IMG/VR virus record: IMGVR_UViG_3300032214_001346
Coordinates: 1-64,000 of that record
Length of the DNA stretch: 64,000 nucleotides
Direction: 5' to 3' (one strand)
Origin: a virus
The first letter of the stretch is position 1. Every line of letters begins with the position of its first letter. Below are positions 10,737 to 61,321 of this stretch, piece by piece. Below the pieces are notes generated by a model. It saw only the letters and a list, made by a program, of their open reading frames with translations. It was not told where the DNA came from and did no database searches. A program made the position numbers and the translations under genes.

Positions 10737-11654
10737 ATGAATGTAGTTGATGAATTAATGGTTTTTTTGACAACAGAATTGGGAGAATTTAAGCAAGAAA
10801 TATTGGATGAGTTTAAAAAGATCGATTTTAAACGGGACTTGGATTTACTTTCAACCAATAACCAATTGCATCTAGACAAAGAACAATTGCAATTAGAAGT
10901 AAGAGATATCAAATTAGCTAATAACCAATTATGCTTAGACAAAAAACAATTGGAATTAGAAGTAAGTGATATCAAATTAGCTAATGGTCAATTATGCTTA
11001 GACAAAGAACAGTTAGAATTAGAAGTAAGTGATATCAAATTAGCTAATGGTCAATTATGCTTAGACAAAGAACAATTGGGTCTAGAGATAGAGGAACTCA
11101 AACTAGCTAACAATCAATTATGCTTAGGCAAAGAACAACTGGGTTTAGAAATAGAGGAATTAAAATTAAACAACAATCAGCTATGTCTAGGCAAAGAACA
11201 ATTGGGTTTAGAAATAGAGGAACTAAAACTAGCTAACAACCAATTATGCTTAGACAAAGAACAATTGGGTCTAGAGATAGAGGAACTGAAGTTAAATAAC
11301 AATCAGTTATGCTTAGGCAAAGAACAATTGGGTTTAGAGATAGAGGAACTGAAGTTAAATAACAATCAGTTATGCTTAGGCAAAGAACAATTGGGTTTAG
11401 AAGTTGAGGAGTTAAAACTAGCTAACAATCAATTATGCTTAGGCAAAGAACAATTGGGTTTAGAAGTTGAGGAGTTAAAACTAGCTAATGAGCAGTTATT
11501 TTTAAGTAATGCACAGTTGCAATTACACAATAATAAGCTACAATTAGATAATAATAAGCTACAGATGGAGAATAAACAATTGATAATCAATTACAACACA
11601 CATATTAACGAGCCTAGTCAATCTTCTATTAATATATTGGAAAGATTCTTATGA
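10737..11654 (+). CDS. Coiled-coil protein with about ten 21-aa repeats (module copy 2, gene A)
   Basis: LKLANNQLCLGKEQLGLEIEE repeats; ends SSINILERFL. Confidence 0.75.
   Translation: MNVVDELMVFLTTELGEFKQEILDEFKKIDFKRDLDLLSTNNQLHLDKEQLQLEVRDIKLANNQLCLDKKQLELEVSDIKLANGQLCLDKEQLELEVSDIKLANGQLCLDKEQLGLEIEELKLANNQLCLGKEQLGLEIEELKLNNNQLCLGKEQLGLEIEELKLANNQLCLDKEQLGLEIEELKLNNNQLCLGKEQLGLEIEELKLNNNQLCLGKEQLGLEVEELKLANNQLCLGKEQLGLEVEELKLANEQLFLSNAQLQLHNNKLQLDNNKLQMENKQLIINYNTHINEPSQSSINILERFL
10857..11490 (+). repeat. Imperfect 63-bp tandem repeat (about 10 units) inside 10737..11654
   Basis: Recurrent AATCAATTATGCTTAGGCAAAGAACAATTGGG-like units; boundaries approximate. Confidence 0.85.
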
Positions 11655-24312: not shown

Positions 24313-25716
24313 TCAATAACTTTGTTGAGCTAAATTCTTGAACTCTGAATATTGCCCATCAAAGAGTAACTTGTCTGTTCCTGTTTCAGCGTTGCGCGCC
24401 TTTGTAGTAATCAGTTCAGCTACACCTACATCTGTAGTTTCTTTATTGTAATACTCATCACGGTAAAGCATCATGATGACATCTGCGTCTTGTTCAATAT
24501 TCCCGCTTTCAGACAGGTCGCCCATGGTAGGTCTTTTGTCTGTTCGGCTTTCCGTGGCTCTGTTTAACTGAGATAAAGCCAATACTGGACAATTAAACTC
24601 TCCTGCTAATTCTTTAAGCATTCGGCTTGTATCCCCAACTTTAATCCGAAAGTCCCTATTATTGGACTTATCATTTCTAGCAAGCAGGGTGATGTGATCA
24701 ACCACAATCAGTCCTACATCGCCAGTTTTGGCCTTCTTTTGCCTAATCGTGTTCCGCATCTCCATCGGAGAAATACTAAAATTATCGCATATAAATAGCC
24801 TTGAGTCATGTAGTATTTGTGACTGAGTGAGATTAAAAAATTCGTTCCATTCACTTTGAGTAAGTTGATTTTTTACAAATTGATTCAAACAGGTTCGGGT
24901 TAGTTTGGCGGCTAATCTAGCCGCCAAATCTTCTTTAGATGTTTCTAGGGAGAATACGTAAACGTTTTTTAGCAGTACACTGGCAACGTGCCAAGCGATC
25001 GCCATACCACAGGCGGTTTTGCCCATACTGGGTCTACCCGCTAAGATATGCAGCAGTTTTTTATGCAGTCCTCCTAGACGGTTATCCAAGTCGTAAAACC
25101 CCATCTTGACAGGGGCAGGTCGTTCTCCCGCTTGAATTTCATACTTCTCTGTGTATAAAGATGTCACAGCATCACTGATGTGGATTAATTCTGATTTTGT
25201 TTGATTAGTGCTTATATCAAGAATCTTCCTTTGGCATTCTTCAATAGCTTCATGTGTCGGAACCCAAGTATCCCACGCTATTTTTAGCGATTCATTAAGA
25301 GTCTTGATTAATTGTCTGCGTTGGTATTTTTCCAGAACTAGTGCCGCCATAGCATCAATATTAATTGCAGATACTGTGCGGTCTACTAAAGTGGCTAATT
25401 TATTTCTGCCACCAATTCTTTCTAGTTGATCCTTGTCTCTCAGATAATTAGCCATAGAGAGTAAATCAGTGGGTTGGTGCTGTGCATGAAGTTGTAAAGC
25501 AGCTTTGTAAATCACTGCGTGTGCATCTATATAAAATGCTTCGGAAGGTAAAAAATCGCACACTCGTTGAATAGCTTCAGGATCTAGTAAAATGCCGCCT
25601 AAGACGACTTCTTCAGCTTCAACGTTTTGAGGGGGCAATAGAGTAATTTCTTGAGTAAACATGGTAGTTGACCTTAAATGTTTGTTATGCAGATGGTAAA
25701 TGCTTAGACCAATCAA
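24313..25716 (-). CDS. dnaB: Replicative DNA helicase DnaB (start probably 25662)
   Basis: PPQN.EAEE.VLGGIL, AGRPSMGKT, FSLE, LSQLNR, RP...DL.ESG.IEQDAD, KARN. Confidence 0.95.
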   Translation of the reverse strand: MIGLSIYHLHNKHLRSTTMFTQEITLLPPQNVEAEEVVLGGILLDPEAIQRVCDFLPSEAFYIDAHAVIYKAALQLHAQHQPTDLLSMANYLRDKDQLERIGGRNKLATLVDRTVSAINIDAMAALVLEKYQRRQLIKTLNESLKIAWDTWVPTHEAIEECQRKILDISTNQTKSELIHISDAVTSLYTEKYEIQAGERPAPVKMGFYDLDNRLGGLHKKLLHILAGRPSMGKTACGMAIAWHVASVLLKNVYVFSLETSKEDLAARLAAKLTRTCLNQFVKNQLTQSEWNEFFNLTQSQILHDSRLFICDNFSISPMEMRNTIRQKKAKTGDVGLIVVDHITLLARNDKSNNRDFRIKVGDTSRMLKELAGEFNCPVLALSQLNRATESRTDKRPTMGDLSESGNIEQDADVIMMLYRDEYYNKETTDVGVAELITTKARNAETGTDKLLFDGQYSEFKNLAQQSY

Positions 25717-26848
25717 AACGCGGTTGATTAATCAATGCGTAGTCGAGATACGCTCGATTCCAACTACGTTTGCTACAAAAGTCTTCTAAGCTTTTGCAAT
25801 TGATGTATTGCTCCCATACGGTTTGATGCTGGATTGGCTGCCAGGTTAATACAGCGTCAGGAAGGGGGACTAAAGCCATTTCTTTTTTAGTTTTGATGGA
25901 ATATTCCTTCCATCTGATTTCTAAGTTGTTATGGTCTTTTTTGAGGTGGCTGTAGACATTAGCCCGTGACTCATGGATATCAGTTCCAAATTTGCCCGCC
26001 CACTCCAAAGCGAACCATTGCCAAAAGTCATTATCCAGTTGGCCGTTTTTCTTCCATGGACCATCTGGTAGCCATTCCCATGCTATATCTTTTGCGCTTT
26101 TACGCGGTTTTCCAAATGGTTCAACCACATTTGCCTTGTCAAGACGCGCCGGGGCGGCGGGCGCAACTTTGTCCAATGAGAGATTTATCTGTTTACCCGA
26201 AATTCCTTCCTTTAAATCAGGAATAGCAGATATCTGTTCTACTCCATCTTGTTTTAAATCCTCTTTAGCGGGAGGAAGTCCGCTAGATACTTCTTCTTTA
26301 GATATTTCTTTCTTAAATACTTCTTGGAATAAGTATTTATTATGTGGCAGGTTTTCCGTAGCCGGATTTTCCGTAGCCGGATTTTCCGTAGCCGGATTTT
26401 CCGTAGCCGGATTTTCCGTAGCTGGATTTTCCGTAGCCGGATTTTCCGTAGCCGGATTTTCCGTAGCCGGATTTTCCGTAGCCGGAAAACCTGATTCCGG
26501 TTTTACCCTTGCTGTACGGGCTTTCTGAGTTTTTTTGCTTGGTTCGCTTGATGGTATTTCCCGAATAACAGATTTCCATCCTGCCATTCTTCCGTTTACT
26601 CGTGCTTGCTCACGAGTTAAATACCCAAACTTTTCTAATTCTTTTAATGCTGAACAAACAGATGTTTTTCCGTCAGATTCAGACTGGTCAGACAAATGTT
26701 CGGTATTAATCTCCCACCCATCAGGGTAGGAAAGCAATAAGTGATGTAGCCCACGCGCTTTGAAGCTCAACCGCGTATCTCTAATAGCCGCGTTGGCTAT
26801 TACTGTGTAATCTTTTGAATGCTGCACTCTTATTGTTTCCCCCATCAC
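25685..26848 (-). CDS. Phage replication initiator (N-terminal wHTH, internal iteron region)
   Basis: YTVIAN..IRD.RLS.KARGL...LLS.PDGW...AL.ELE..GYL; (PATEN)9; upstream of dnaB. Confidence 0.85.
   Translation of the reverse strand: MMGETIRVQHSKDYTVIANAAIRDTRLSFKARGLHHLLLSYPDGWEINTEHLSDQSESDGKTSVCSALKELEKFGYLTREQARVNGRMAGWKSVIREIPSSEPSKKTQKARTARVKPESGFPATENPATENPATENPATENPATENPATENPATENPATENPATENLPHNKYLFQEVFKKEISKEEVSSGLPPAKEDLKQDGVEQISAIPDLKEGISGKQINLSLDKVAPAAPARLDKANVVEPFGKPRKSAKDIAWEWLPDGPWKKNGQLDNDFWQWFALEWAGKFGTDIHESRANVYSHLKKDHNNLEIRWKEYSIKTKKEMALVPLPDAVLTWQPIQHQTVWEQYINCKSLEDFCSKRSWNRAYLDYALINQPRFDWSKHLPSA
26352..26486. repeat. 9 x 15-bp iterons TTTTCCGTAGCCGGA; probable replication origin within the initiator gene
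   Basis: Nine contiguous units, one with a single change; AT-rich tract adjacent; lambda O-like arrangement. Confidence 0.9.
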
Positions 26849-28079: not shown

Positions 28080-28355
28080 TCACACTATTTCACACTTACC
28101 TGTGATTGTGATACTTGTACTTTCCTCTTGATATTCTATTTTACACTTACCTGTGATTGTGATATCTATACTTTCCTCTTGATATTTGATGGAAAGTCCA
28201 ATGATTTGCCTTTGCTCAAGCGAGATATTTGGGTCTAATCCAATTTCTTCAACTAACATTATTTCCAGTCCATCCAAGCCATTGTAAAACTCAATCCTTA
28301 TGCTTTCAGTATCTCCTCTTTTGGCTTTGATTTTGGTGATTTTCCGCTCATTCAT
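28080..28355 (-). CDS. Hypothetical protein with a 17-aa tandem duplication
   Basis: YQEES..ITITGKC.I twice (51-bp repeat). Confidence 0.5.
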   Translation of the reverse strand: MNERKITKIKAKRGDTESIRIEFYNGLDGLEIMLVEEIGLDPNISLEQRQIIGLSIKYQEESIDITITGKCKIEYQEESTSITITGKCEIV

Positions 28356-31602: not shown

Positions 31603-32646
31603 ATGGAAACAACAATGATAGTAGCGGAAGTAGATGATGAGTATCAGGGTTGTCAAGGAAAAATCATTTTCATGGCAAATACTTACTATGCAAAATTAAA
31701 AAACTACACTTTGGAGCTACAAGTACAAAAAGTTTTGTTTCTACCTAGCTGGGTTGAGATTGTCACACCGTTCAAAGCTGAAATTGAAAATGAGTTTGGC
31801 ACTAATGCTAATTCGGTATGCAATGCCGTTAGCTCGGTTTTAAAAGGTATAGAAAGACGTGTGAACGCAGAAGCGAATCAATTCCCAGATGGTATGCTAA
31901 TTCAGCAATATCAACTTTTTTGCAAGTCTGTTAAATCCTTGATGAGCGAGTATAGTAAATCTAAGCGTGTAGAAGGACAAAAGAAATTAAATTTGAGACA
32001 GCAAAATACAATTGATGTTGAGGTCGCTTCGTTGCTTTTGTGGTCAAAAGCTAAGTTGCAAAACTTACCACGACTAGGTAAAGACTGGACTGAAGTAGCG
32101 ATCGCGCTGATGACCCTTACAGGTCGAAGGCAGTCTGAAATTATGTGTAGTGGTAGCTTTGAATACCTTGATAATAACTGGGTTATGTTTAGTGGACAAC
32201 TCAAAAAACATAGTTTAGAAAGTGCCGAAAGCTACAAAATTCCCATTTTAATGGGCGCTGCTAGAGAAGTAGTTGAAGGACTTAGGTGGCTGTCAGACTC
32301 GCGTAAGCGAGTACAGATTATAGATGGTGATGTTAGTGCTGCTGCTAAAAAGGCTCATGATATGTACAGCAGTTATCTAAGCGCGAGCGTCAAGGATGTG
32401 TTAGGTGCTTATGTAAAGACTGATGATAACTGGGTTCACGAAGGAAAAGATCGGAAAAAATGTCTTCTCTTGAGACAAATATACGGTCAAGTCGTCTATC
32501 CTTTGTTTTTTAGGGATAGTAGGCAAAAAATAAACCAAGCGTTAAATCAAATTATGGGACATAACAATAGCTTAGAAGCGGGTAGGAGCAGTGTCACCTG
32601 TTATGACGCAGATGTCGTAGTGATTGACATTGATAAATGTAAATAG
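31603..32646 (+). CDS. Protelomerase / telomere resolvase family tyrosine recombinase
   Basis: LTGRRQSEI...G.F......MFSGQLKK...IP.L...LRQIY...IMGH...Y aligns by eye with TelN SGRRMIEI...FSGQAKK...SRAIY...ILGH...Y. Confidence 0.8.
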   Translation: METTMIVAEVDDEYQGCQGKIIFMANTYYAKLKNYTLELQVQKVLFLPSWVEIVTPFKAEIENEFGTNANSVCNAVSSVLKGIERRVNAEANQFPDGMLIQQYQLFCKSVKSLMSEYSKSKRVEGQKKLNLRQQNTIDVEVASLLLWSKAKLQNLPRLGKDWTEVAIALMTLTGRRQSEIMCSGSFEYLDNNWVMFSGQLKKHSLESAESYKIPILMGAAREVVEGLRWLSDSRKRVQIIDGDVSAAAKKAHDMYSSYLSASVKDVLGAYVKTDDNWVHEGKDRKKCLLLRQIYGQVVYPLFFRDSRQKINQALNQIMGHNNSLEAGRSSVTCYDADVVVIDIDKCK

Positions 32647-53570: not shown

Positions 53571-54179
53571 TTGCAAAAGGGAATAAGCTTTATGGAAGTA
53601 ACATTAATCGCTTTAATCTTAATATCATATTTAGTCTACTTACTGCATTTTAAAATAATTCCATCATTGCAAAGATTAGATAAGAAAGTTTTTAAAAACA
53701 AGAACAGACCCAAGTTATCCCCAAATCAAGAATCAGAAATTAAAGGATATATGCGGCAGATATTAGCAACTACAAGCTTTAATCGTGTGTCCCTTTATTT
53801 CTTAGACTCACCATACATAAACAACAATCTTATTCAAGCAGACTCTTACACATTATGGATAGAAGCGTCTAAATCTATTCCTATGCGAAAAGACACTAAA
53901 TTATCTTTTGCTTATATCAGTGAAGAATTTAACCGCATGATACAGGCAAAAATAACTCATAAATATTATAAAAACGCTAAAGAGGGTCTAATATGTCAGG
54001 TGTGGTTGCGCGATCGCCATACTGTCAGCTATGGGATATATATAATCAATGACTGTTCATTTTTGTTACTGGAAATTGCTATTACTCAACTTCCTAAATT
54101 ATTTTATATTTTATTGAGACACAATAAACACGGGGATTATGTTAGTCCGTGTTCTGCGGTAGCCCGTGTTTTACGGTAG
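53571..54179 (+). CDS. Membrane-anchored hypothetical protein (start probably 53592)
   Basis: N-terminal TM; similarity to 48427..49257. Confidence 0.5.
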   Translation: MQKGISFMEVTLIALILISYLVYLLHFKIIPSLQRLDKKVFKNKNRPKLSPNQESEIKGYMRQILATTSFNRVSLYFLDSPYINNNLIQADSYTLWIEASKSIPMRKDTKLSFAYISEEFNRMIQAKITHKYYKNAKEGLICQVWLRDRHTVSYGIYIINDCSFLLLEIAITQLPKLFYILLRHNKHGDYVSPCSAVARVLR

Positions 54180-54183
54180 CTGA

Positions 54184-54327
54184 TCAGCCATAAGCAGCTT
54201 CACTCATGTCTTCCCCAATGCAGTAGCCATAAAAGTATTGCTCGTTGTCTCTTGTTCCTTCTGGGTAGGGATTATTGTAAGGTTGATTGTTGAACCCAGC
54301 ATCATATCCTTCTTCGTATGCAGACAT
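54184..54327 (-). CDS. 47-aa Rmf/CrpP-fold-like small protein (not in ORF track)
   Basis: MSAYEEGYDAGFNNQPYNNPYPEGTRDNEQYFYGYCIG: AY..GY.AG...PY...Y..GY..G pattern. Confidence 0.5.
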   Translation of the reverse strand: MSAYEEGYDAGFNNQPYNNPYPEGTRDNEQYFYGYCIGEDMSEAAYG

Positions 54328-54879
54328 AGTTTTTCTCTACTTTCTATAGAATTAATGTAGTTTCCTGCTTTTCATAGGGAAACATAACAATTATTGTATC
54401 ACGAATAATTATAATTATTTAAAGTTTTATGGTAGCTATGTTATGAGTGTTAGCTGCTAGTTTTAATCCGGCTTTCAAAAGTAAGTTAATATTAAATTAA
54501 TGATTTTGGGTATAATTATGACACAATCTTTGTATTTTTTTAATAATAGCAAAGTTACTCCTGAAAAGGTTGAATTAAGGTCGCCTTTGTCTTGCATTAG
54601 TGCTTATGAAGAAACTTTAGAATCTCTTTTGTGTACGGCTGATTATCTTTCTCCTGTTTCCACTAGCTTTATGATGAATGACGCTGTGTGGGGGGCTATT
54701 GAAGGGATTATCAGAGATCAAATATCAGCGTTAAAACTTTCTCTTGAGGAACAATTTGATCTGTTGCAAGACCATCAAGTTCTTGGTAATTTGTTTAGGC
54801 ACAATTTATTACTGGTAACTGTTTATTAATAAACAGTGTATTTACCCACTAAAGCGTATTAGTGGGTAGTGGAAATAAG

Positions 54880-55299
54880 CTACTTCACTGGATACCATGT
54901 ATCAGATCGCCGCTGCTCTTGCCATGCCAGCTTTGACAAAGTGGCTTGTAAATAAGAAATTGCCTTCTTTTTAGCATCCTCTTCATATACGGCATAGACG
55001 TAAAATCTATATACGTCTTCGAGAAAAGAATAGCCCTCTTCAGATGAATTTATTCCAATCCATCCTTTGGAGACATATACAGGGTATTCCTCTTTAGCAG
55101 GAATTTTTACCGTATACGGAGTTTCATTATGCTTCGGCAATTCTGGAATTGTCAAGACTTCCAATTCTTCAATCTGTGCTGACTCATCATCTTTAAATCC
55201 CCACAGGACTTTTGCTCTTTCTGCATCTTCCATGGATGCGAAAGCACCGTGAACTTGGTAATCGTCGTATTCACCAGATGTGAGTAGGTATACTTGCAT
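54880..55299 (-). CDS. Hypothetical phage protein
   Basis: VYL...GEY.DY.V.G.F.S.E.AE.A N-terminus common in phage proteins. Confidence 0.6.
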   Translation of the reverse strand: MQVYLLTSGEYDDYQVHGAFASMEDAERAKVLWGFKDDESAQIEELEVLTIPELPKHNETPYTVKIPAKEEYPVYVSKGWIGINSSEEGYSFLEDVYRFYVYAVYEEDAKKKAISYLQATLSKLAWQEQRRSDTWYPVK

Positions 55300-55550
55300 T
55301 AAATTAACTCCAATAAAATTGTTAGTGCTGATTGGATGCTGTTGATTGCATCCTTGATTAATGCCCGCTTTTGGGTTGCGGGTTTATTTGGTTTAGAAAC
55401 TAACAACTCATCATTAGCTATTAGTTTCATGAACTTAGAAATGTTGGGGTCTTCACCCCACGTACAGCCAAACTCTAAAGCTTTATTCTCTAGCTTGGCT
55501 TTGTCTTCCATTGAGACGGAGAGCGTAATGCTCTCCTGTTTCCTGGTCAT
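55299..55550 (-). CDS. RHH-like protein resembling the N-terminus of cyanobacterial WYL regulators
   Basis: M.RK..SITLS....DKA.LE..A.EFG..WG..PNISK....IA..EL. Confidence 0.6.
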   Translation of the reverse strand: MTRKQESITLSVSMEDKAKLENKALEFGCTWGEDPNISKFMKLIANDELLVSKPNKPATQKRALIKDAINSIQSALTILLELI

Positions 55551-55885
55551 TGCAAATAAATTTCAACTTCTGTCCCTTTGTCGCGTAGATAAGGCGCAAA
55601 GCTTTCTTCATCTTCACCCAATACAATACAGGCGTTATTTACAGCATCATGAATGCTACAATCCATGAAAACTTGATGCTTGTAATACGTGGCTTTCATT
55701 ATGCTATTCTGTACCATTGTCAGAACCAGGGCTGATAATGGTGTACCACTTTTGCTGTACTGAGATGAGAAGTACAAATCTTCATCCCTTTTGACTTCAT
55801 AATTTAATCTATTTTCTAATGCTTGAGCCATAAACTTGTCATGCGCCAATTGCGCTAATTGCGATTCGTTTTCCCACCTAAACAT
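55547..55885 (-). CDS. Hypothetical protein
   Basis: ORF in operon with RBS. Confidence 0.5.
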   Translation of the reverse strand: MFRWENESQLAQLAHDKFMAQALENRLNYEVKRDEDLYFSSQYSKSGTPLSALVLTMVQNSIMKATYYKHQVFMDCSIHDAVNNACIVLGEDEESFAPYLRDKGTEVEIYLQ

Positions 55886-55899
55886 AAGTGTCCTTTTTA

Positions 55900-56340
55900 T
55901 TACAGGATTTTACTTGCGCCTATACAGTAACCGATTATCCGGTCACTCCATCCCAGTTTTTCCATCTCCTGAATGGGTGCAAACTGACTCATCCAATCCC
56001 AAGGATCAGACGGTCTGATTTTTAACCCAATCAATTCAGGAATTAATCTGAGCATTTCAGGTTTCCAATACCTTTGCAGACAGCCACCGACCTTAATAAA
56101 GGCCTTTTTAACTTGTTCCTCTGAATATGTGGGAACAAGAAAGTCCATTAAGTTCAGTTGCACTGGGGTGGTGACAGACTTAAGAGGGGGTTGAACAGCA
56201 GCCTCTATACTTGCAAGCTTATTCTCGCAGTCAATCAGGGCAATAATGTACTTACGAGCATTCCTAACGCCTATAGCTATTTGGTTTCTCAGCCTGGCGA
56301 TCGCTGACTTTAACTTTTTAACGATAAGTGCAACACCCAT
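55900..56340 (-). CDS. Hypothetical early protein
   Basis: AGGAG RBS; TTGACA box near 56429-56434. Confidence 0.55.
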   Translation of the reverse strand: MGVALIVKKLKSAIARLRNQIAIGVRNARKYIIALIDCENKLASIEAAVQPPLKSVTTPVQLNLMDFLVPTYSEEQVKKAFIKVGGCLQRYWKPEMLRLIPELIGLKIRPSDPWDWMSQFAPIQEMEKLGWSDRIIGYCIGASKIL

Positions 56341-56886
56341 GGTACAATACTCCTAATCACTTGGTTAATAGAGGCTTGGGCTGTCTCCCTTGTCTCTATA
56401 TTTATATCATTACACAATATTTTATCCTTGTCAATAAGAAATTGTCCGTATTTTAATATATTTTGTACTGAATTTTTAAAGTTGTAAATTGTACAATATG
56501 AAAAGAAGTAAGCGACGTAACCGACATCAACTAAAACAGCAACTAAGGAAATTAGATGCGATCGCGCTTAAACAAATCCATAGGAGCTATAACCTTTCTT
56601 CGGCTTCCTGGGGTGGTAGTCGTTGCCCTGGATGCGGAATAAGTATTCGACCGTGCCAACTGCTTAACGCTGATTTTAGCCGGACTTTAGTAGATGAACA
56701 CAGTAGATGGGTTGGGCATATTTCAGGGCATTTTCTACCTTGCAAAAAAGTTAAACGCTGTCCCGGCGAAAGGGATTGGTTTTAAAGTTTCGGGAATTGA
56801 TATTATTTTTGCCATTAAAGGGATTGATTATAGTTGCATGATGTGAATCATCGTTTTCAATAATCCAATGTCTTTAATGGCTATTT

Positions 56887-57218
56887 TTATCCACAATCAG
56901 GTTTTCCAGCTACGGAAAAACCACAAGCGGAAAAACCAGCTACGGAAAAACCACAAGCGGAAAATCCGGCTACGGAAAATCCGGCTACGGAAAATCTGCT
57001 ATATAATAAATATCTATTCCAATAAGTATTTAATTAAAGAATTATCTAAAGAGGAAGTATCTAAGCGGAATGCCCCTCATAAGAGGATTTAAGAAAAGAA
57101 CTAACACAACAGATATCTGTTATTCCTGGCTTAAAGACAAATATTTTTAGAGAACAGATAAATCACTCATTGGATCAGGTTATGCCCGCCCGCCGCGCTT
57201 AAAAATGACAAGAAGCTA
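56887..57218 (+). pseudogene. Non-coding inverted copy of the initiator's origin segment: DnaA box TTATCCACA (56887-56895), six 15-bp iterons (56906-56995), AT-rich tract
   Basis: Translates to SGFPATEKPQAEKPATEKPQAENPATENPATENLLYNKYLFQ*, then frameshifted homology to EEVS...QIS.IP.LK...QIN.SLD.V.PA. Confidence 0.85.
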
Positions 57219-57318
57219 TAGATAGTAAAGCGTAAATTACATCACTCAACTACAATCAAGTACCTTCATGGCGGAAATAACACCAATTCCTGTAATTCCT
57301 GTTTCTCCTATGAGTCCA

Positions 57319-57337
57319 CTTGCAATTAACCCAGTTC
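57319..57337 (-). CRISPR. Isolated 19-nt 3' half of the CRISPR repeat (GAACTGGGTTAATTGCAAG)
   Basis: Exact match to the array repeat. Confidence 0.75.
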
Positions 57338-57388
57338 AGGTGTCTTTATTTTAGTAAAGAAAGCCTTGAAAGCCTTATATTCTCGATC

Positions 57389-57476
57389 CGTTAAAAGTAA
57401 CGTTGGAGTCGTTAAAAGTAACGTTGGAGTCGTTAAAAGTAAGGTTGGAGTCGTTAAAAGTAACGTTGGAGTCGTT
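57389..57476. repeat. 4 x 21-bp tandem repeat CGTTAAAAGTAACGTTGGAGT (iteron-like)
   Basis: Four contiguous units with one substitution; followed by an AT-rich TTAATTAACA duplication. Confidence 0.9.
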
Positions 57477-57565
57477 GAATTTAAGGTTTCATCTATATTA
57501 TTAAACAATCTTAATTAACAGTCTTAATTAACAATCTTTAGCTTAAGCGTAAATAAAAAAGCTTC

Positions 57566-57695
57566 TTTAAGAAAAGAACTAATACAACAGATATCTGTTA
57601 TTCCTGGCTTAAAAGTAAATATTTTTAGAGAACAGATAAATCACTCATTGGATCAGGTTATGCCCGCCGCCGCGCTTAAAAATGACAAAAAGCTA
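57566..57695 (+). repeat. About 130-bp direct repeat of 57088-57218
   Basis: TTTAAGAAAAGAACTAA...CACTCATTGGATCAGGTTATGCCCG...AAAAATGACAA nearly identical. Confidence 0.9.
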
Positions 57696-57807
57696 ATAGA
57701 CTTTGGTTCAGAATTTATAAAGCAATTTTAAAGCGTACTTATTGAATAAATAAAAAAATACCCACTAAAGCGTGTTAGTGGGTATCAGGTTGAAACCTAC
57801 AATGCAA

Positions 57808-58011
57808 CTATAACACTGTTGAAACAGCCAAGACATCATTCATGTCTTGTCCATAATATTGAACTTCAGCGGTTCTCCGTCCAAAGCGAATATCCGCGTT
57901 TCCGCCGAAGGCTCTAATTTTCCCTGCGGACATCTTGACGTACACCTGGTTATCGTCCGTTAGGGAAAAATACCCGCAGACTGGTACATCTTTAAATTGT
58001 CTAAGCTTCAT
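57808..58011 (-). CDS. 67-aa hypothetical protein with its own consensus promoter (TTGACA-17-TAGACT, 58046-58074)
   Basis: AGGAG RBS, promoter and downstream hairpin terminator. Confidence 0.65.
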   Translation of the reverse strand: MKLRQFKDVPVCGYFSLTDDNQVYVKMSAGKIRAFGGNADIRFGRRTAEVQYYGQDMNDVLAVSTVL

Positions 58012-58115
58012 TGTTTTGTCTCCTTGTCTCCTGATTTATAAATATAGTCTATCTTATTTTTTGTTTACTGTCAAGTGGTTTTAGAAAATATTTGTTTCGC
58101 TTGCTTGCTTGAATT

Positions 58116-58223
58116 CTTGCAATTAACCCAGTCCCTCAAGTCCGGTTTCACCACGCTGAAACACAATTTAATACTTTAACTTACACCTTGCAATTAACTC
58201 AGTCCCTCAAGGTCGATTTCACC
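58116..58223 (-). CRISPR. Degenerate mini-array: two diverged 37-bp repeats (58116-58152, 58187-58223) and one 34-nt spacer
   Basis: CTTGCAATTAAC.CAGT and TTTCACC ends conserved; centre diverged. Confidence 0.85.
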
Positions 58224-58353
58224 TTTACCCCTATTATAGCATTATTTCTTATTAGGAAACAATTGCTCAAGTACCCGTCCTACAGTAGTTCCTAACCACT
58301 GACCACCGCGTTTTGAGGGTATGTTTTTATTGTTTAAATAATCTGCGATCTAG

Positions 58354-58593
58354 CTAAAAATCAACTCTACCATCACTGTTTAATTGGAATGTTTCGGCGT
58401 AGTCCTTGGCGATGAAACTGCTTATTAAGTCTACAGTGGTTACTTCGTTCATGGTTTTGTCGTAATACTGAGCATAATCTGATATGGTTTTATAGGCCAC
58501 TATTAGGTTTATGGCACTAGCTTTTAGTTCCGGGTTGTTCCAATCTGTCTTGTTGATGAACGCCAATTCTTTGCTGATATCCATTAATTCCAT
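58354..58593 (-). CDS. 79-aa hypothetical protein lying between the main array and the mini-array
   Basis: ORF behind a TGCTATAAT box; flanked by 36-bp direct repeats. Confidence 0.6.
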   Translation of the reverse strand: MELMDISKELAFINKTDWNNPELKASAINLIVAYKTISDYAQYYDKTMNEVTTVDLISSFIAKDYAETFQLNSDGRVDF

Positions 58594-58648
58594 AGCTTTT
58601 AAGGGGTAGGTTTTACCCCTATTATAGCATTATTTCTTATTAGGAAAT

Positions 58649-59049
58649 CTTGCAATTAACCCAGTTTCCCAAGGTCGGCTTCACCAATTAAATAGCACCG
58701 GCACTAATGATGAGATAAGAGTCTTGCAATTAACCCAGTTCCCTAAGGTCGGTTTCACCTTCTGAATATTGAATCTTTGATAGAAGCTAACTTGCAATTA
58801 ACCCAGTTCCCTAAGGTCGGTTTCACCAACTCGATGTTTTTTATTCCTGATTTTGAATCAAATCTTGCAATTAACCCAGTTCCCTAAGGTCGGTTTCACC
58901 CAAACCGGGAGGGTTGATGGAATTTAGGTCGACACTTGCAATTAACCCAGTTCCCTAAGGTCGGTTTCACCTTTGAAGCTCAAAAAAAGAGATTAGAGTT
59001 GAATTTTCTTGCCTTGCAATTAACCCAGTTCCCTAAGGTCGGTTTCACC
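58649..59049 (-). CRISPR. CRISPR array: six 37-bp repeats GGTGAAACCGACCTTAGGGAACTGGGTTAATTGCAAG with five spacers (41, 34, 36, 31, 37 nt in transcription order)
   Basis: Repeats at 59013-59049, 58935-58971, 58864-58900, 58791-58827, 58723-58759 (identical) and 58649-58685 (3 mismatches, trailer end); unique spacers. Confidence 0.97.
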
Positions 59050-60783
59050 TGCCGTATCCCAGATCGTAAGCTGTGTAAAGGTTTCATCCCCTGATTGCGC
59101 GGATCTCTTATTTTTCTTTGTTCCAGGTTTTTGAGTTTTCGCTGAATTAGCTGAAATGCTTATTGGGTAAGGTGCGCGGGTGCTTGGTAAATTGTCAAGG
59201 TTCGGATTGCTTACGGTGTCTACCTTTGAGGTTGTTTTCACGGCTTTAGAGGTTTTTACATCCCCCCTTCCGCGCTGAGTTCCCCTTTCGGGGTTTAATT
59301 GGGAGGAATATCCATCCTCCGGTGGTGCTTGCACACCTTCCTGGTGACATCCCGTATTGGAATCAGAGCCAGGCTTTCGGGTTTCCCCATGTTCCCACGC
59401 CCAAGCGCGGTACACTGCTGATAATTGTTTTTTGCCTTTGAGCAAGATGTTCTTAGCTGCATTAGAATCACGTCCTTCTGTGTGACCACATTCTGTACAG
59501 CGGTGAGTTCTTTGGCTCAATGCTTTCTTTATTTTAGCACCACATTTTGAACAGTCAACCGTAGTGAAATGAGCAGCAACTTTTACAAACTCTCTATCAG
59601 TATCTTTACACTTTGTTTCAATTTTACTGATTAAATCACCCAGTGCTGAATCAGCAAAACTTTTGTTTAACCCAGCTTTACGTTTTGCACCGTTTTGTTC
59701 ATAGCCATTGCCGTCCTCACGTTTCTTGGCTTTGGGCTTACGGTTCAGGTTTTGTATCTTTAAGTCTTCCATCACAATCCCAGAATACTCACGCACAACT
59801 TTAGTAGATAACTTATGGTTAAAAGCGTTACGGCTGCGGCGGATCTTTTCATGGTGTAAAGCTATTTTTTGATAGGTTTTCTTCTGATTACATCCTCCCT
59901 TTTGTTGCCTAGACGCTTTACGCTGTAACCGTCTTAGCTTTGCTTGTTGTTTCCTAAATAGCTTAGGCGGTTCTATTTCTCTCCCCTGATCTGTGGTGAT
60001 AATTGATAGTAAACCCGGATCAATTCCTACTGCTTTATCAGATTTTGGTAATGGGTCATTGGGGATATCAACGCATACATGAAGATAGTAACCTGATGGT
60101 TCTTTAACTATTCTGGCAGGACCCCATTCTTGCCAGTCATATCTATCAAATAATCCTTTAACTTTAATTTTACCAAGTTTAGGGAACTGGACATAGCCAT
60201 TATTTGAGCCGGGTATTTTTTCCGGTTTTAGTTCTTTGGATAAACCCCCAGCATTGAGATTAACAAGTGACTTGATTTTATCATTTCTCCCTTTGAATTT
60301 TGGCTTTCTACCGGGGTGTTTTGGGGTAACGTAAGCTTTCCATGATTTCTTTAAAGAATCAATTACCCCTGCCTTAAATTTAGTGGGAACATCTGCCATA
60401 AAGTCGGGAATATTGTCACTCCTATAAAATTCACATTGTCCATATTTATCAGGGTTTTCAATATTCAAATGTTGTCTAATTTCACAGTAAGGATGACCGC
60501 TTTTAGGTCTGATGACACCTGTACCGACTAAGCGGACTTTTTCCCACTTCTCAGTAGACTTACCTTTCTTGTCTTCAGTAACAACCTTTCGCCATTTCCA
60601 CTGCAAAACTACACCATCAGGAATAATGCGATCGCTTATTTCTTTCTCTCTATAATATTTCTGTCTTCCTGCTAGTTTGAGTGACAGCCCTGTATTCCAA
60701 ACCCACTTGAGTTTGTCTAGCCATTGATTAATCGTTTGTACCTGTGCAACCGTGGGGTCAAGTTTAAATTCAAAAGTTTTCAT
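59020..60783 (-). CDS. TnpB/Cas12f-like RNA-guided RuvC nuclease, CRISPR-associated (compact type V candidate)
   Basis: KTFEFKLDPT...WVWN N-terminus; RuvC-I GIDPG, RuvC-II VMEDL, Zn finger CSKC/CTEC, RuvC-III RDSNAAKNI; directly fused to the array. Confidence 0.9.
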   Translation of the reverse strand: MKTFEFKLDPTVAQVQTINQWLDKLKWVWNTGLSLKLAGRQKYYREKEISDRIIPDGVVLQWKWRKVVTEDKKGKSTEKWEKVRLVGTGVIRPKSGHPYCEIRQHLNIENPDKYGQCEFYRSDNIPDFMADVPTKFKAGVIDSLKKSWKAYVTPKHPGRKPKFKGRNDKIKSLVNLNAGGLSKELKPEKIPGSNNGYVQFPKLGKIKVKGLFDRYDWQEWGPARIVKEPSGYYLHVCVDIPNDPLPKSDKAVGIDPGLLSIITTDQGREIEPPKLFRKQQAKLRRLQRKASRQQKGGCNQKKTYQKIALHHEKIRRSRNAFNHKLSTKVVREYSGIVMEDLKIQNLNRKPKAKKREDGNGYEQNGAKRKAGLNKSFADSALGDLISKIETKCKDTDREFVKVAAHFTTVDCSKCGAKIKKALSQRTHRCTECGHTEGRDSNAAKNILLKGKKQLSAVYRAWAWEHGETRKPGSDSNTGCHQEGVQAPPEDGYSSQLNPERGTQRGRGDVKTSKAVKTTSKVDTVSNPNLDNLPSTRAPYPISISANSAKTQKPGTKKNKRSAQSGDETFTQLTIWDTAGETDLRELG

Positions 60784-60816
60784 GGTAAAATAGATGCGTG
60801 GGTATGTTGGACCTAC

Positions 60817-60878
60817 TCCTAGTGGTGGATTGATGCTGAGAACATCACCACGCGACTAGGTTTAAATATTATAGCATT
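60817..60878 (-). promoter_or_regulatory. Extended -10 (AATGCTATAATA) and 5'-UTR hairpin of the nuclease gene
   Basis: CCTAGT..GTGG.TGATG-loop-CATCA..CCAC.ACTAGG on the minus strand. Confidence 0.55.
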
Positions 60879-60991
60879 TAAACCAAATATATGACATTGA
60901 GGCAATTGAAACAGAAACTTTACGCTACAATAATAATGTCAAGCTCAGATATATTAAGGGTGCTGTCAGTAATGCTGACAGCTTTATCATT

Positions 60992-61321
60992 ATGTTCCCA
61001 AATGCGCCTAGTTCTCTTAAAATCAGTTGGGATAATGCCATAAGTTTTGAAGCAAGTTTCTTATCTCAAAACTACCAGGGTGGTGTGGATGAGAAAGGGA
61101 ATAGAAACCAGCTTAACCAGGTGGTCGGTACGCAGACTTTGACCTTGACCATTGATAGTTTATTTACTTATTCAGAGATTGATACTTTTTTAACTAATAA
61201 TTTAAGTAAGCCTTTCTACTTTAATTCCACTTTGTACCGTTGCGAGACGTTTAAGTGGACACCATCTAGCGATAAGGTGTTTAAGTTGGAACTGAGTTTA
61301 ATTCAAATATTTAGACCTTAA
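60992..61321 (+). CDS. Second minor tail protein M-like protein
   Basis: IDTFL......PFYF....YRC..F........LS..Q.F.P; 109 aa. Confidence 0.55.
   Translation: MFPNAPSSLKISWDNAISFEASFLSQNYQGGVDEKGNRNQLNQVVGTQTLTLTIDSLFTYSEIDTFLTNNLSKPFYFNSTLYRCETFKWTPSSDKVFKLELSLIQIFRP

What the first reader, a model, noticed from the sequence alone, without database searches (positions are those of the whole stretch)
57361..57695. A second cassette with foreign 21-bp iterons sharing the same 130-bp tail: possible origin-decoy array
Seen: 4 x CGTTAAAAGTAACGTTGGAGT, an AT-rich tract, then a near-exact copy of the 130 bp that ends the first cassette. The layout is [iterons A + AT + tail][iterons B + AT + tail]. 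No initiator with B-type repeats was seen in the window. Inference: a collection of origins from different replication specificity groups, next to a CRISPR system, that could sponge or exploit a competitor's initiator. This would be a DNA-based anti-phage device.
Basis: inference. Interest (0 to 1): 0.72.

Follow-up and report, generated by a model that had tools for sequence, protein, structure and literature searches.

The report
Orphan replication-origin copy in a cyanophage
This stretch is a non-coding copy of the origin segment found inside the replication-initiator gene of related cyanophages; it carries binding repeats for an initiator type that this phage does not encode, so it is most likely a leftover of a replication-module swap, and a deliberate decoy is possible but unproven.

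Summary
There are 4.2 copies of CGTTAAAAGTAACGTTGGAGT at 57389-57476, a 77.5% A+T tract with 13-mer repeats, and a 130-bp tail (57566-57695) about 96% identical to 57088-57218.

Both cassettes are frame-broken copies of the middle of O-like initiator genes, laid out like oriλ inside gene O. The resident rep gene (25685-26848, minus strand, next to dnaB) is "type 1", with 15-bp repeats; cassette 1 copies it.

Cassette 2 aligns over almost its whole length (79%) with the iteron/AT-rich/tail segment of "type-2" rep genes of related phages. These genes have another N-terminal domain and 21-bp repeats (SLEITQE, SVKKTLE); Aphanizomenon phage CL131 gp081 is one.

No type-2 DNA-binding domain is encoded in the 93-kb genome. 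The 21-mer occurs only in this cassette, never in a rep gene.

The cassette sits after a csf1-like gene in relatives of both rep types. It has four units in type-2 phages and is shortened or missing in several others.

Cassette 1 repeats co-vary with the resident rep gene.

My reading is an orphan heterologous origin module: 0.5 that it is a relic of a rep-module swap, about 0.25 that it is a selected decoy or piracy site.

Earlier notes of this scan recorded the post-csf1 iteron cluster in other genomes.

The parts
57389..57476 (+). Cassette 2 iterons: 4.2 x 21 bp CGTTAAAAGTAACGTTGGAGT with core AACGTTGGAGTC. In the ancestral rep frame they read SLKVTLE x4. A GATC lies just upstream, as in type-2 rep genes.
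   Evidence: TRF. Homologous to the repeats inside type-2 rep genes: the first unit of L022-24, CGTTAAAAACAACGTTGGAGT, matches 19/21; L019 CGTTAGAAATAACGCAGGAGT matches 17/21. tblastn of the L019 rep hits 57391-57516.
57477..57565 (+). AT-rich tract, 77.5% A+T, with 13-mer repeats AACAATCTTAATT x2.7 at 57504-57538. It looks like a DNA-unwinding element. It is the degraded counterpart of the '..LNLKDDLYSLNIQIKQSDL..' coding stretch of type-2 rep genes and now carries stops.
   Evidence: About 88% identical between a type-1 phage (G001) and a type-2 phage (G007), against 76.5% at third codon positions of the adjacent csf1 gene.
57566..57695 (+). Tail copy 2: a non-coding homologue of the rep-gene stretch '..QQIS..PDLK..KQIN.SLD..PAAP..'. 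It holds the 12-bp palindrome ACAGATATCTGT (57587-57598) and a GC-rich end.
   Evidence: 96-97% to 57088-57218. (75% to 26150-26258 on the minus strand, inside the rep gene). tblastn hits 57519-57689 in a different frame from the iterons.
57696..57784 (+). Segment downstream of the tail, ending in the hairpin TACCCACTAAAGCGTGTTAGTGGGTA (57759-57784). In relative G001 this segment also follows cassette 1, so the direct repeat there is about 225 bp.
57235..57355 (+). 3' remnant of a csf1-like gene (type IV-B-like operon), ending ..PLAINPVQVSLF*. It contains a 19-nt half CRISPR repeat at 57319-57337. The rest of the operon (about 4 kb) is deleted here but present in G001 and G002.
56887..57001 (+). 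Cassette 1: a perfect DnaA box TTATCCACA (56887-56895), then six 15-bp units. Four have the resident core GCTACGGAAAA and two have the core ACAAGCGGAAAA of the PQAEN subtype.
57002..57087 (+). Cassette 1 AT-rich spacer: the degraded '..NKYLFQEVFKKEISKEEVS..' stretch, with stops.
57088..57218 (+). Tail copy 1, with the palindrome ACAGATATCTGT at 57109-57120.
25685..26848 (-). Resident type-1 O-like replication initiator gene. It holds nine 15-bp repeats (26352-26486, PATEN x9) and the homologue of the tail (26150-26258). This is the presumed true origin.
   Evidence: (phrog_4707 7e-32; HTH_36)..
24313..25716 (-). DnaB-type replicative helicase gene, directly downstream of rep.
   Evidence: DnaB_C 4e-76.
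31603..32646 (+). Protelomerase-like gene. This is context: it points to a linear plasmid-prophage lifestyle, in which iteron incompatibility would matter.
   Evidence: PF16684, 85.5 bits, above the cut-off. No PF00589 integrase in the record.

Best explanation
Cassette 2 is a non-coding, origin-type DNA module copied from the middle of a 'type-2' O-like initiator gene. It has four 21-bp initiator-binding repeats spaced two helical turns apart, an AT-rich unwinding tract with 13-mers, and a conserved tail. As in oriλ inside gene O, the origin of this phage group lies inside rep, so a copy of that segment alone is an origin without its protein.

The module is the ancestral extragenic iteron site of this phage clade and sits just after csf1. 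It matches the resident initiator in type-2 relatives. In this phage the replication module has been exchanged for a type-1 initiator with 15-bp repeats, which cassette 1 now matches. That leaves cassette 2 an orphan: no protein encoded here should bind it, and it is dispensable.

Its repeat array was rebuilt by slippage from one unit. Its tail was homogenised with cassette 1 by gene conversion. It can act only in trans, when a type-2 phage is in the same cell, and then as a by-product.

Shown: the homology, the non-coding state, the absence of a cognate DNA-binding domain, and the distribution among relatives. Inferred: initiator binding, the direction of the swap, and the lack of selection.
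For: Homology:
- Cassette 2 aligns with the L019 type-2 rep mid-segment over positions 5-290 of 311 (224/284 identical). It aligns with the resident rep only over the tail.
- tblastn gives E 1.9e-16 in two different frames, with stops.
- Type-2 rep genes have 21-bp (7-aa) repeats (SLEITQE, SVKKTLE, PLKTTLE, SLKVTQE), followed by ..LNLKDDLYS...
- N-terminal type and repeat type are always linked, whatever the C-terminal type.

No cognate protein:
- No type-2 N-terminal domain is found in the 93-kb, 94%-complete record.

Distribution among relatives:
- G007 and G008 (type-2) have four diverged units with core AACGYTGGAGTC, like their own rep.
- G005 (type-1) has only two units.
- L096 and L098 have about 1.5 units, then the CRISPR array.
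- G004 (type-1) has none.
- Contigs of other relatives run from the csf1 stop straight into a CRISPR repeat.

Cassette 1 repeats track the resident rep:
- GCTACGG in the window and G001; ACAAGTGG in G004. The rest of the cassette stays about 92-98% identical.

Gene conversion of the tails:
- The two tails are 96% identical here but 90% in G001.

No matching rep gene:
- The exact 21-mer occurs only in this cassette.
- No rep protein with an SLKVTLE array was found.
Against: - The array here is intact and nearly perfect (four units, one mismatch), and the full origin architecture is kept. A relic would be expected to decay.
- Iterons (86%) and the AT-rich tract (about 88%) are more alike between a type-1 and a type-2 phage than csf1 third codon positions (76.5%). 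That hints at constraint, though the sample is about 80 sites and the constraint may act only in the type-2 lineage.
- Cassette 1 also carries two units of a foreign subtype. A 'collection' of specificities could therefore be selected.
- The direction of the swap (type-2 ancestral) rests on few genomes.
Confidence: 0.5

Rival explanations
1. Selected heterologous iteron array. The type-2 repeats, and the two foreign-subtype units in cassette 1, are kept because they capture the initiators of related phages of other specificity groups in the same cell. This would either titrate or handcuff the rival initiator, giving incompatibility or exclusion between plasmid-prophages. Or it would let the rival's initiator fire replication of this genome, which is origin piracy. 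The rival's C-terminal domain is about 90% identical to the resident one, so it should fit the resident helicase.
For: - The origin architecture is intact and the repeats are homogeneous.
- Type-2 phages share the host group and habitat. CL131 infects Aphanizomenon, and several database hits are named Dolichospermum.
- The type-2 rep of L019 shares 90% identity with the resident rep over the C-terminal 187 residues.
- A protelomerase is present and no integrase was found, which suggests a plasmid-prophage lifestyle where iteron incompatibility applies.
- Precedents exist. Plasmids carrying oop plus oriλ iterons exclude repλ phages (PMC3349717). Extra iteron loci titrate initiators (PMC6090056).
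- There is modest excess conservation.
Against: - The element predates the type-1 initiator and is cognate in type-2 relatives.
- It is truncated or absent in several relatives.
- No rep gene with matching SLKVTLE repeats was found among the database's 5.8 billion proteins, or with the exact 21-mer in three DNA collections.
- Four sites per genome make a weak sponge.
Confidence: 0.25
2. A cis element used by the resident phage itself. It could be a second origin or replication-control site bound by an unrecognised resident protein or by host factors. Or it could be an RNA or 3'-UTR element of the type IV-B-like operon, since in relatives it lies between the csf1 stop and a terminator hairpin.
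For: - Its position directly after csf1 is conserved in phages of both rep types.
- The AT-rich part is conserved.
- In G005, G007 and G008 a hairpin terminator follows it.
Against: - In this window the csf operon is deleted but the cassette is kept.
- No Rfam family matches.
- Homology to the rep origin segment explains the whole sequence.
- More distant type-2 phages, one of them 100% complete, and CL131 have no extragenic copy, so it is not a required part of this replicon type.
Confidence: 0.12
3. A small protein-coding gene with a 7-residue repeat: 57366-57518 on the plus strand (50 aa), or 57326-57508 on the minus strand (60 aa).
For: Both frames are open. A minus-strand TTG ORF is open in all five phages compared.
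Against: - A 21-bp repeat is open in most frames by construction.
- The plus-strand ORFs have no start codon in G005 or G007, and the SLK frame has an in-frame TGA seven codons upstream here.
- Differences between units in G007 are synonymous only in the ancestral rep frame, not in the minus frame.
- The products are low-complexity, with TTG starts and variable length.
Confidence: 0.03

Closest known systems
oriλ inside gene O of phage lambda and lambdoid phages (established knowledge; PMC3349717 describes iterons ITN1-4 plus the AT-rich region)
   Same: The initiator has an N-terminal DNA-binding domain. Its binding repeats lie inside its own gene and encode the linker, followed by an AT-rich tract. 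The helicase gene is adjacent. Specificity groups are formed by co-varying N-terminal domain and repeats.
   Different: Cassette 2 is the origin segment alone: outside any gene, frame-broken, 30 kb from rep, and of a specificity that the genome does not encode. The initiators match PHROG O-like families only weakly (phrog_345 2e-7; best is phrog_4707).
Extra iteron clusters of iteron replicons: P1 incA, F incC, P4 crr (own knowledge), and the RctB-titrating loci of Vibrio cholerae chromosome 2 (PMC6090056)
   Same: Initiator-binding repeats placed away from the working origin. Cassette 1, whose repeats follow the resident rep, fits this kind.
   Different: Those loci carry the replicon's own repeats. 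Cassette 2 carries repeats of another group and keeps a whole origin layout. No effect on copy number was tested here.
Inhibition phenotype of cloned oop-oriλ fragments against repλ phages (Hayes et al. 2012, PMC3349717)
   Same: An origin fragment with iterons, supplied in trans, blocks replication of phages that use the matching initiator.
   Different: That is a laboratory construct on a multicopy plasmid, and it needs oop transcription. Here the fragment is natural, single-copy per genome, and untested.
Aphanizomenon phage vB_AphaS-CL131 gp081/gp080 (MG209611.1; PMC6293099)
   Same: gp081 is a type-2 initiator with 4.3 x 21-bp intragenic repeats, upstream of the replicative helicase gp080. 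It is 70% identical in DNA to the iteron/AT part of cassette 2.
   Different: gp081 is annotated as hypothetical. The paper does not mention an origin or iterons. CL131 has no extragenic cassette, and its repeat core differs (AACGCACGAGTC).

Membership tests
Iteron-type origin of an O-like initiator (oriλ layout) | Three or more direct repeats in helical phase | tested here: met
   4.2 x 21 bp, 97% matches.
Iteron-type origin of an O-like initiator (oriλ layout) | Adjacent AT-rich unwinding tract | tested here: met
   57477-57565 is 77.5% A+T against 61.7% for the genome, with 13-mer x2.7.
Iteron-type origin of an O-like initiator (oriλ layout) | Homology to the repeat segment of initiator genes | tested here: met
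   79% identity over 284 nt with the L019 type-2 rep; tblastn E 1.9e-16. The repeat units match 17-19 of 21.
Iteron-type origin of an O-like initiator (oriλ layout) | Cognate initiator encoded by the same replicon | tested here: not met
   No match to the N-terminal 150 residues of type-2 initiators in the 93-kb record. The record is 94% complete and tblastn has limited sensitivity.
Iteron-type origin of an O-like initiator (oriλ layout) | Initiator binding and origin firing | not testable with these tools
   Needs EMSA or footprinting and a replication assay.
Regulatory / incompatibility iteron locus (incA-like) | Repeats of the replicon's own specificity outside the origin | tested here: not met
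   Cassette 2 repeats are type-2 and the resident rep is type-1. The feature is met by cassette 1.
Regulatory / incompatibility iteron locus (incA-like) | Lowers copy number or destabilises a replicon that uses the matching initiator | not testable with these tools
CRISPR array | Repeats separated by unique spacers | tested here: not met
   The units are contiguous, with no spacers. The true array with a 37-nt repeat starts at 58116.
Known structured RNA family | Match to an Rfam covariance model | tested here: not met
   No match at E<=1 in 54000-61000.
Protein-coding repeat gene | ORF with a start codon conserved in relatives | tested here: not met
   The plus-strand ORFs lack starts in G005 and G007. 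Only a low-complexity minus-strand TTG ORF persists.

The most novel reading that the evidence does not exclude
The phage keeps a small set of origin modules for initiators it does not encode: type-2 repeats in cassette 2 and PQAEN-subtype units in cassette 1. This would be a protein-free weapon or hitch-hiking device against closely related (plasmid-)prophages. A rival's initiator is captured on the resident genome, which either makes the rival incompatible or makes the rival replicate the resident.
Probability: 0.2. Interest if true: 0.8.

Novelty: new variant of a known kind. Interest (0 to 1): 0.5.

Why it matters
This work defines a modular family of cyanophage initiators. There are two N-terminal types, each tied to its own intragenic repeats, and at least three C-terminal types. 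It assigns a function to CL131 gp081.

It also shows that origin segments can be copied out of rep genes as non-coding modules. One class of these (cassette 1) co-evolves with the resident initiator. Another class (cassette 2) can be left orphaned after a swap of replication module.

If the orphan still captures foreign initiators, it would be a natural case of iteron-based interference between phages. Until now that has been known only from plasmid incompatibility and from cloned oriλ fragments. If it does not, it is a clear molecular fossil that records the direction of replication-module exchange in bloom-associated cyanophages.

Tried and rejected
- Rfam scan of 54-61 kb: nothing.
- GC-skew profile of the whole genome: it follows gene orientation and gives no origin signal.
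- Exact 21-mer in the virus, metagenome and genome collections: only the same cassette turned up, never a rep gene.
- The pattern TTTAAGGTTTCATCTATA gave one new hit, L103, which is unrelated coding DNA.
The database was small.
- RNA-library contigs: these relatives lack both cassettes, so nothing can be said about transcription of the cassettes.
- Segment-by-segment identity among close relatives: every segment is 89-100% identical, with no clear signal of selection.
- AlphaFold2 of a type-2 initiator: the N-terminal domain has pLDDT below 60, so no fold search was made.
The long contigs encoding P0008, P0009, P0010, P0017 and P0019 could therefore not be checked for cassettes.
- DnaA-box scan: the window has no more boxes than chance (10 against 10.8 expected), and none lies at cassette 2. 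The box at cassette 1 counts only through its position and its conservation in G001 and G004.
- P4 crr could not be documented from the paper library. It is cited from my own knowledge.

Full report
**1. Observation**

The window is the first 64 kb of a 93.4-kb IMG/VR virus record, estimated 94% complete.

- Tandem Repeats Finder reports 57389-57476: period 21, 4.2 copies, 97% matches, score 169, unit CGTTAAAAGTAACGTTGGAGT.
- The next 89 nt are 77.5% A+T, against 61.7% for the genome. They contain 2.7 copies of the 13-mer AACAATCTTAATT.
- Positions 57566-57695 repeat 57088-57218 at 96-97%.
- Cassette 1 has six 15-bp units at 56905-57001.

The description is correct.

**2. Where the cassettes come from**

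The tail has a third, weaker copy at 26150-26258 on the minus strand (75%). It lies inside ORF 25685-26848.

- That ORF is an O-like replication initiator: phrog_4707 at 7e-32, further 'replication initiation' and 'O-like' PHROGs, and HTH_36. A DnaB helicase gene follows it directly (DnaB_C 4e-76).
- Its protein reads ...GF(PATEN)x9 LPHNKYLFQEVFKKEISKEEVSSG...EQISAIPDLKEGISGKQINLSLDKVAPAAPARLDKA....
- Read in that frame, cassette 1 is PATEK PQAEK PATEK PQAEN PATEN PATEN LLYNKYLFQ*, then the degraded KEISKEEVS stretch, then the tail.

So cassette 1 is a frame-broken copy of the repeat/AT-rich/tail segment in the middle of the resident rep gene. This is the layout known from oriλ inside gene O (established knowledge; PMC3349717).

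**3. Cassette 2 comes from a second type of initiator gene**

Fifty-three IMG/VR loci encode relatives of the resident initiator. Their ORFs are modular.

- Type-1 N-terminal domains (like the resident one) always carry 15-bp repeats: PATEN, PQVEN/PQAEN, PQVDF, and also ENLNP in the protein database.
- A second, unrelated N-terminal domain (MGKHLIRHYGRYIYRHEDYQ...) always carries 21-bp repeats. Examples are SLEITQE x5 in L019/L020 and SVKKTLE/SVKKTSE in L021-L024. These are followed by V(N/I)L(K/E)DDLYS(L/S)NIQIKQSDL, and then by the same tail and C-terminal domain as the resident protein.
- In frame, cassette 2 reads SLKVTLE x4, SLNLRFHLYY*, then the tail.

At the DNA level the match is close.

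- The first unit in L022-L024 is CGTTAAAAACAACGTTGGAGT (19/21). The L019 unit is CGTTAGAAATAACGCAGGAGT (17/21). The lead-in GATCCG is shared.
- A local alignment joins cassette 2 to the L019 mid-segment over positions 5-290 of 311 (224/284 identical). The resident rep aligns with the tail only.
- tblastn of the L019 initiator hits 57391-57516 and 57519-57689 in two different frames, with a joint E of 1.9e-16.

A search of 5.8 billion proteins found many more type-2 initiators with mixed 7-residue units (PLKTTLE, TVEKTQE and others). The closest is the last unit of P0009, SLKVTQE, followed by SLNLKDDLYS.

The cultured Aphanizomenon phage CL131 also has one. gp081, annotated 'hypothetical', carries 4.3 x 21-bp repeats and sits upstream of helicase gp080. 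The CL131 paper mentions neither an origin nor iterons.

More distant type-2 genes combine the same N-terminal domain and repeats with two other C-terminal domains.

**4. No cognate protein here, and not a gene**

- tblastn with two type-2 initiators finds nothing for their N-terminal 150 residues anywhere in the 93-kb record.
- The plus-strand ORFs over the repeats lack start codons in relatives G005 and G007. Only a low-complexity minus-strand TTG ORF stays open.
- Differences between units in G007 (TCG/TCT/TCA/TCC, AAA/AAG, ACG/ACA, CTG/TTG) are synonymous in the ancestral rep frame only. This marks descent from coding repeats.

**5. Distribution among relatives**

The exact 21-mer occurs only in this same cassette. 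It is found in two close IMG/VR relatives and three metagenome contigs, and in no genome of the species collection.

The cassette always starts just after the stop codon of one gene.

- In G001 that gene is the last of five: 172 aa, 377 aa, 228 aa, 248 aa and 263 aa.
- These match Csf2, Csf3 and Csf1 of type IV CRISPR systems (E 1e-7, 4e-12 and 5e-8, below the curated cut-offs) and PAPS reductase. I read this as a type IV-B-like operon.
- In the window about 4 kb of this operon is deleted and only the last 120 nt remain (57235-57355). That is why the two cassettes lie side by side here but 4.3 kb apart in G001 and G002.

The state of cassette 2 differs by phage (G011-G015 are more distant type-2 relatives):

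| Phage or contig | Rep type | State of cassette 2 |
|---|---|---|
| G007, G008 | type-2 | four diverged units, core AACGYTGGAGTC like their own rep; same AT-rich tract; no tail (a hairpin instead) |
| G005 | type-1 | two units |
| L096, L098 | not known | about 1.5 units, then the CRISPR array |
| G004 | type-1 | absent; cassette 1 only |
| contigs of other relatives | not known | csf1 stop runs straight into a CRISPR repeat |
| CL131, G011-G015 (one 100% complete) | type-2 | no extragenic copy |

**6. Cassette 1 follows the resident initiator**

- The window rep has GCTACGGAAAATCC x9. Its cassette 1 has four GCTACGGAAAA units and two ACAAGCGGAAAA units.
- The G001 rep is also GCTACGG. Its cassette 1 has six GCT(A/G)CGGAAAAACC units.
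- The G004 rep is ACAAGTGGAAAATCC. Its cassette 1 has one GCTACGG unit and five ACAAGTGGAAAA units.
- The rest of cassette 1 stays about 92-98% identical among these phages. This includes a perfect DnaA box, TTATCCACA, just upstream.

This is either selection for a match to the resident protein or gene conversion from rep. Either way the extragenic cassette is tied to the resident replicon. With only two independent lineages, the evidence is suggestive, not conclusive.

**7. Reading**

The identity of cassette 2, a rep-derived origin-type module of type-2 specificity, is secure (about 0.9). Its role here is not.

I favour an orphan left by a swap of the replication module (0.5). The reasons are:

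- It is cognate in type-2 relatives.
- It decays or is lost in several others.
- No rep gene with the SLKVTLE repeat array was found.
- Its uniform units look like slippage from one unit.
- Its tail is 96% identical to tail 1 here but 90% in G001, as gene conversion would give.

Three things point the other way.

- The architecture is intact.
- Conservation between G001 and G007 is somewhat raised: iterons 86% and the AT tract about 88%, against 76.5% at csf1 third codon positions.
- Two units of a foreign subtype sit in cassette 1.

The decoy or piracy reading (0.25) gains plausibility from several facts.

- The record has a protelomerase (PF16684, 85.5 bits) and no tyrosine integrase. This suggests an N15-like plasmid prophage, for which iteron incompatibility is a real force (inference).
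- The C-terminal domains of type-1 and type-2 initiators are 90% identical.
- Cloned oop-oriλ fragments exclude repλ phages (PMC3349717).
- Extra iteron loci titrate initiators (PMC6090056).

**8. Comparison and novelty**

Origins inside O-like genes, extra iteron clusters, and inhibition by origin fragments in trans are all known. Three things are new here:

- the modular cyanophage initiator family;
- non-coding origin copies placed in a CRISPR-rich hotspot;
- a heterologous orphan copy.

I class it as a new variant of a known kind.

Earlier notes of this scan (e1-3690855, e1-2909340) recorded the iteron cluster after csf1 in other genomes. I confirmed that pattern on G007 and G008.

**9. 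Limits**

- The structure model of the type-2 N-terminal domain was too poor to use.
- No binding or replication data exist.

Noticed in passing
window 57235-57355; L004 9293-13109: Relatives G001 and G002 carry a five-gene type IV-B-like operon between the two cassettes: Csf2-, Csf3-, CysH- and Csf1-like genes plus a 172-aa gene. The window keeps only the last 120 nt of csf1, so about 4 kb was deleted here.
   Followed up: partly
window 57319-57337: A 19-nt half of the CRISPR repeat lies inside the csf1 remnant. In G005, G007 and G008 this codon stretch is different. In other relatives the csf1 stop is followed directly by a full repeat. This looks like a scar of recombination between csf1 and the array.
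   Followed up: partly
window 31603-32646: A protelomerase-like gene (ResT/TelK catalytic domain, 85.5 bits) is present, and no tyrosine integrase is found in the 93-kb record. The phage may lysogenise as a linear plasmid, like N15.
   Followed up: partly
L101 3362-4567 (MG209611.1 75361-76566): CL131 gp081, annotated as hypothetical, is a type-2 initiator with 4.3 x 21-bp intragenic repeats, directly upstream of the replicative helicase gp080. This is probably the unannotated origin of that cultured phage.
   Followed up: yes
L006-L024, L113-L118: The initiator family is a mosaic. Two N-terminal types, each with its own repeat type, are combined with at least three unrelated C-terminal domains. 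The junctions lie near the conserved PAAP / GC-rich end of the tail.
   Followed up: partly
window 56887-56895: A perfect DnaA box, TTATCCACA, lies directly upstream of the cassette 1 repeats. It is conserved in G001 and G004 but absent from the rep gene copy and from cassette 2.
   Followed up: partly
window 54843-54868 and 57759-57784; five copies in L004: A terminator-like hairpin, TACCCACTAAAGCGTRTTAGTGGGTA, recurs at the borders of small gene modules in this region.
   Followed up: no
window 57109-57120 and 57587-57598: The 12-bp palindrome ACAGATATCTGT lies in both tails. The 10-bp core CAGATATCTG is kept in rep genes of both types (coding ..QIS..), so it may be a protein-binding site of the origin.
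   Followed up: no
window 26150-26500 versus 56887-57695; G005, G007, G008: The rep-gene origin and the cassettes are in inverted orientation in the window, G001 and G004, but in direct orientation in G005, G007 and G008. The segment between them may have been inverted.
   Followed up: no
window 10873-11582 and 28085-28186: Other strong tandem arrays: 63 bp x 9.8 inside ORF 10737-11654, and 51 bp x 2 inside or near ORF 28080-28355, about 1.2 kb upstream of rep.
   Followed up: no
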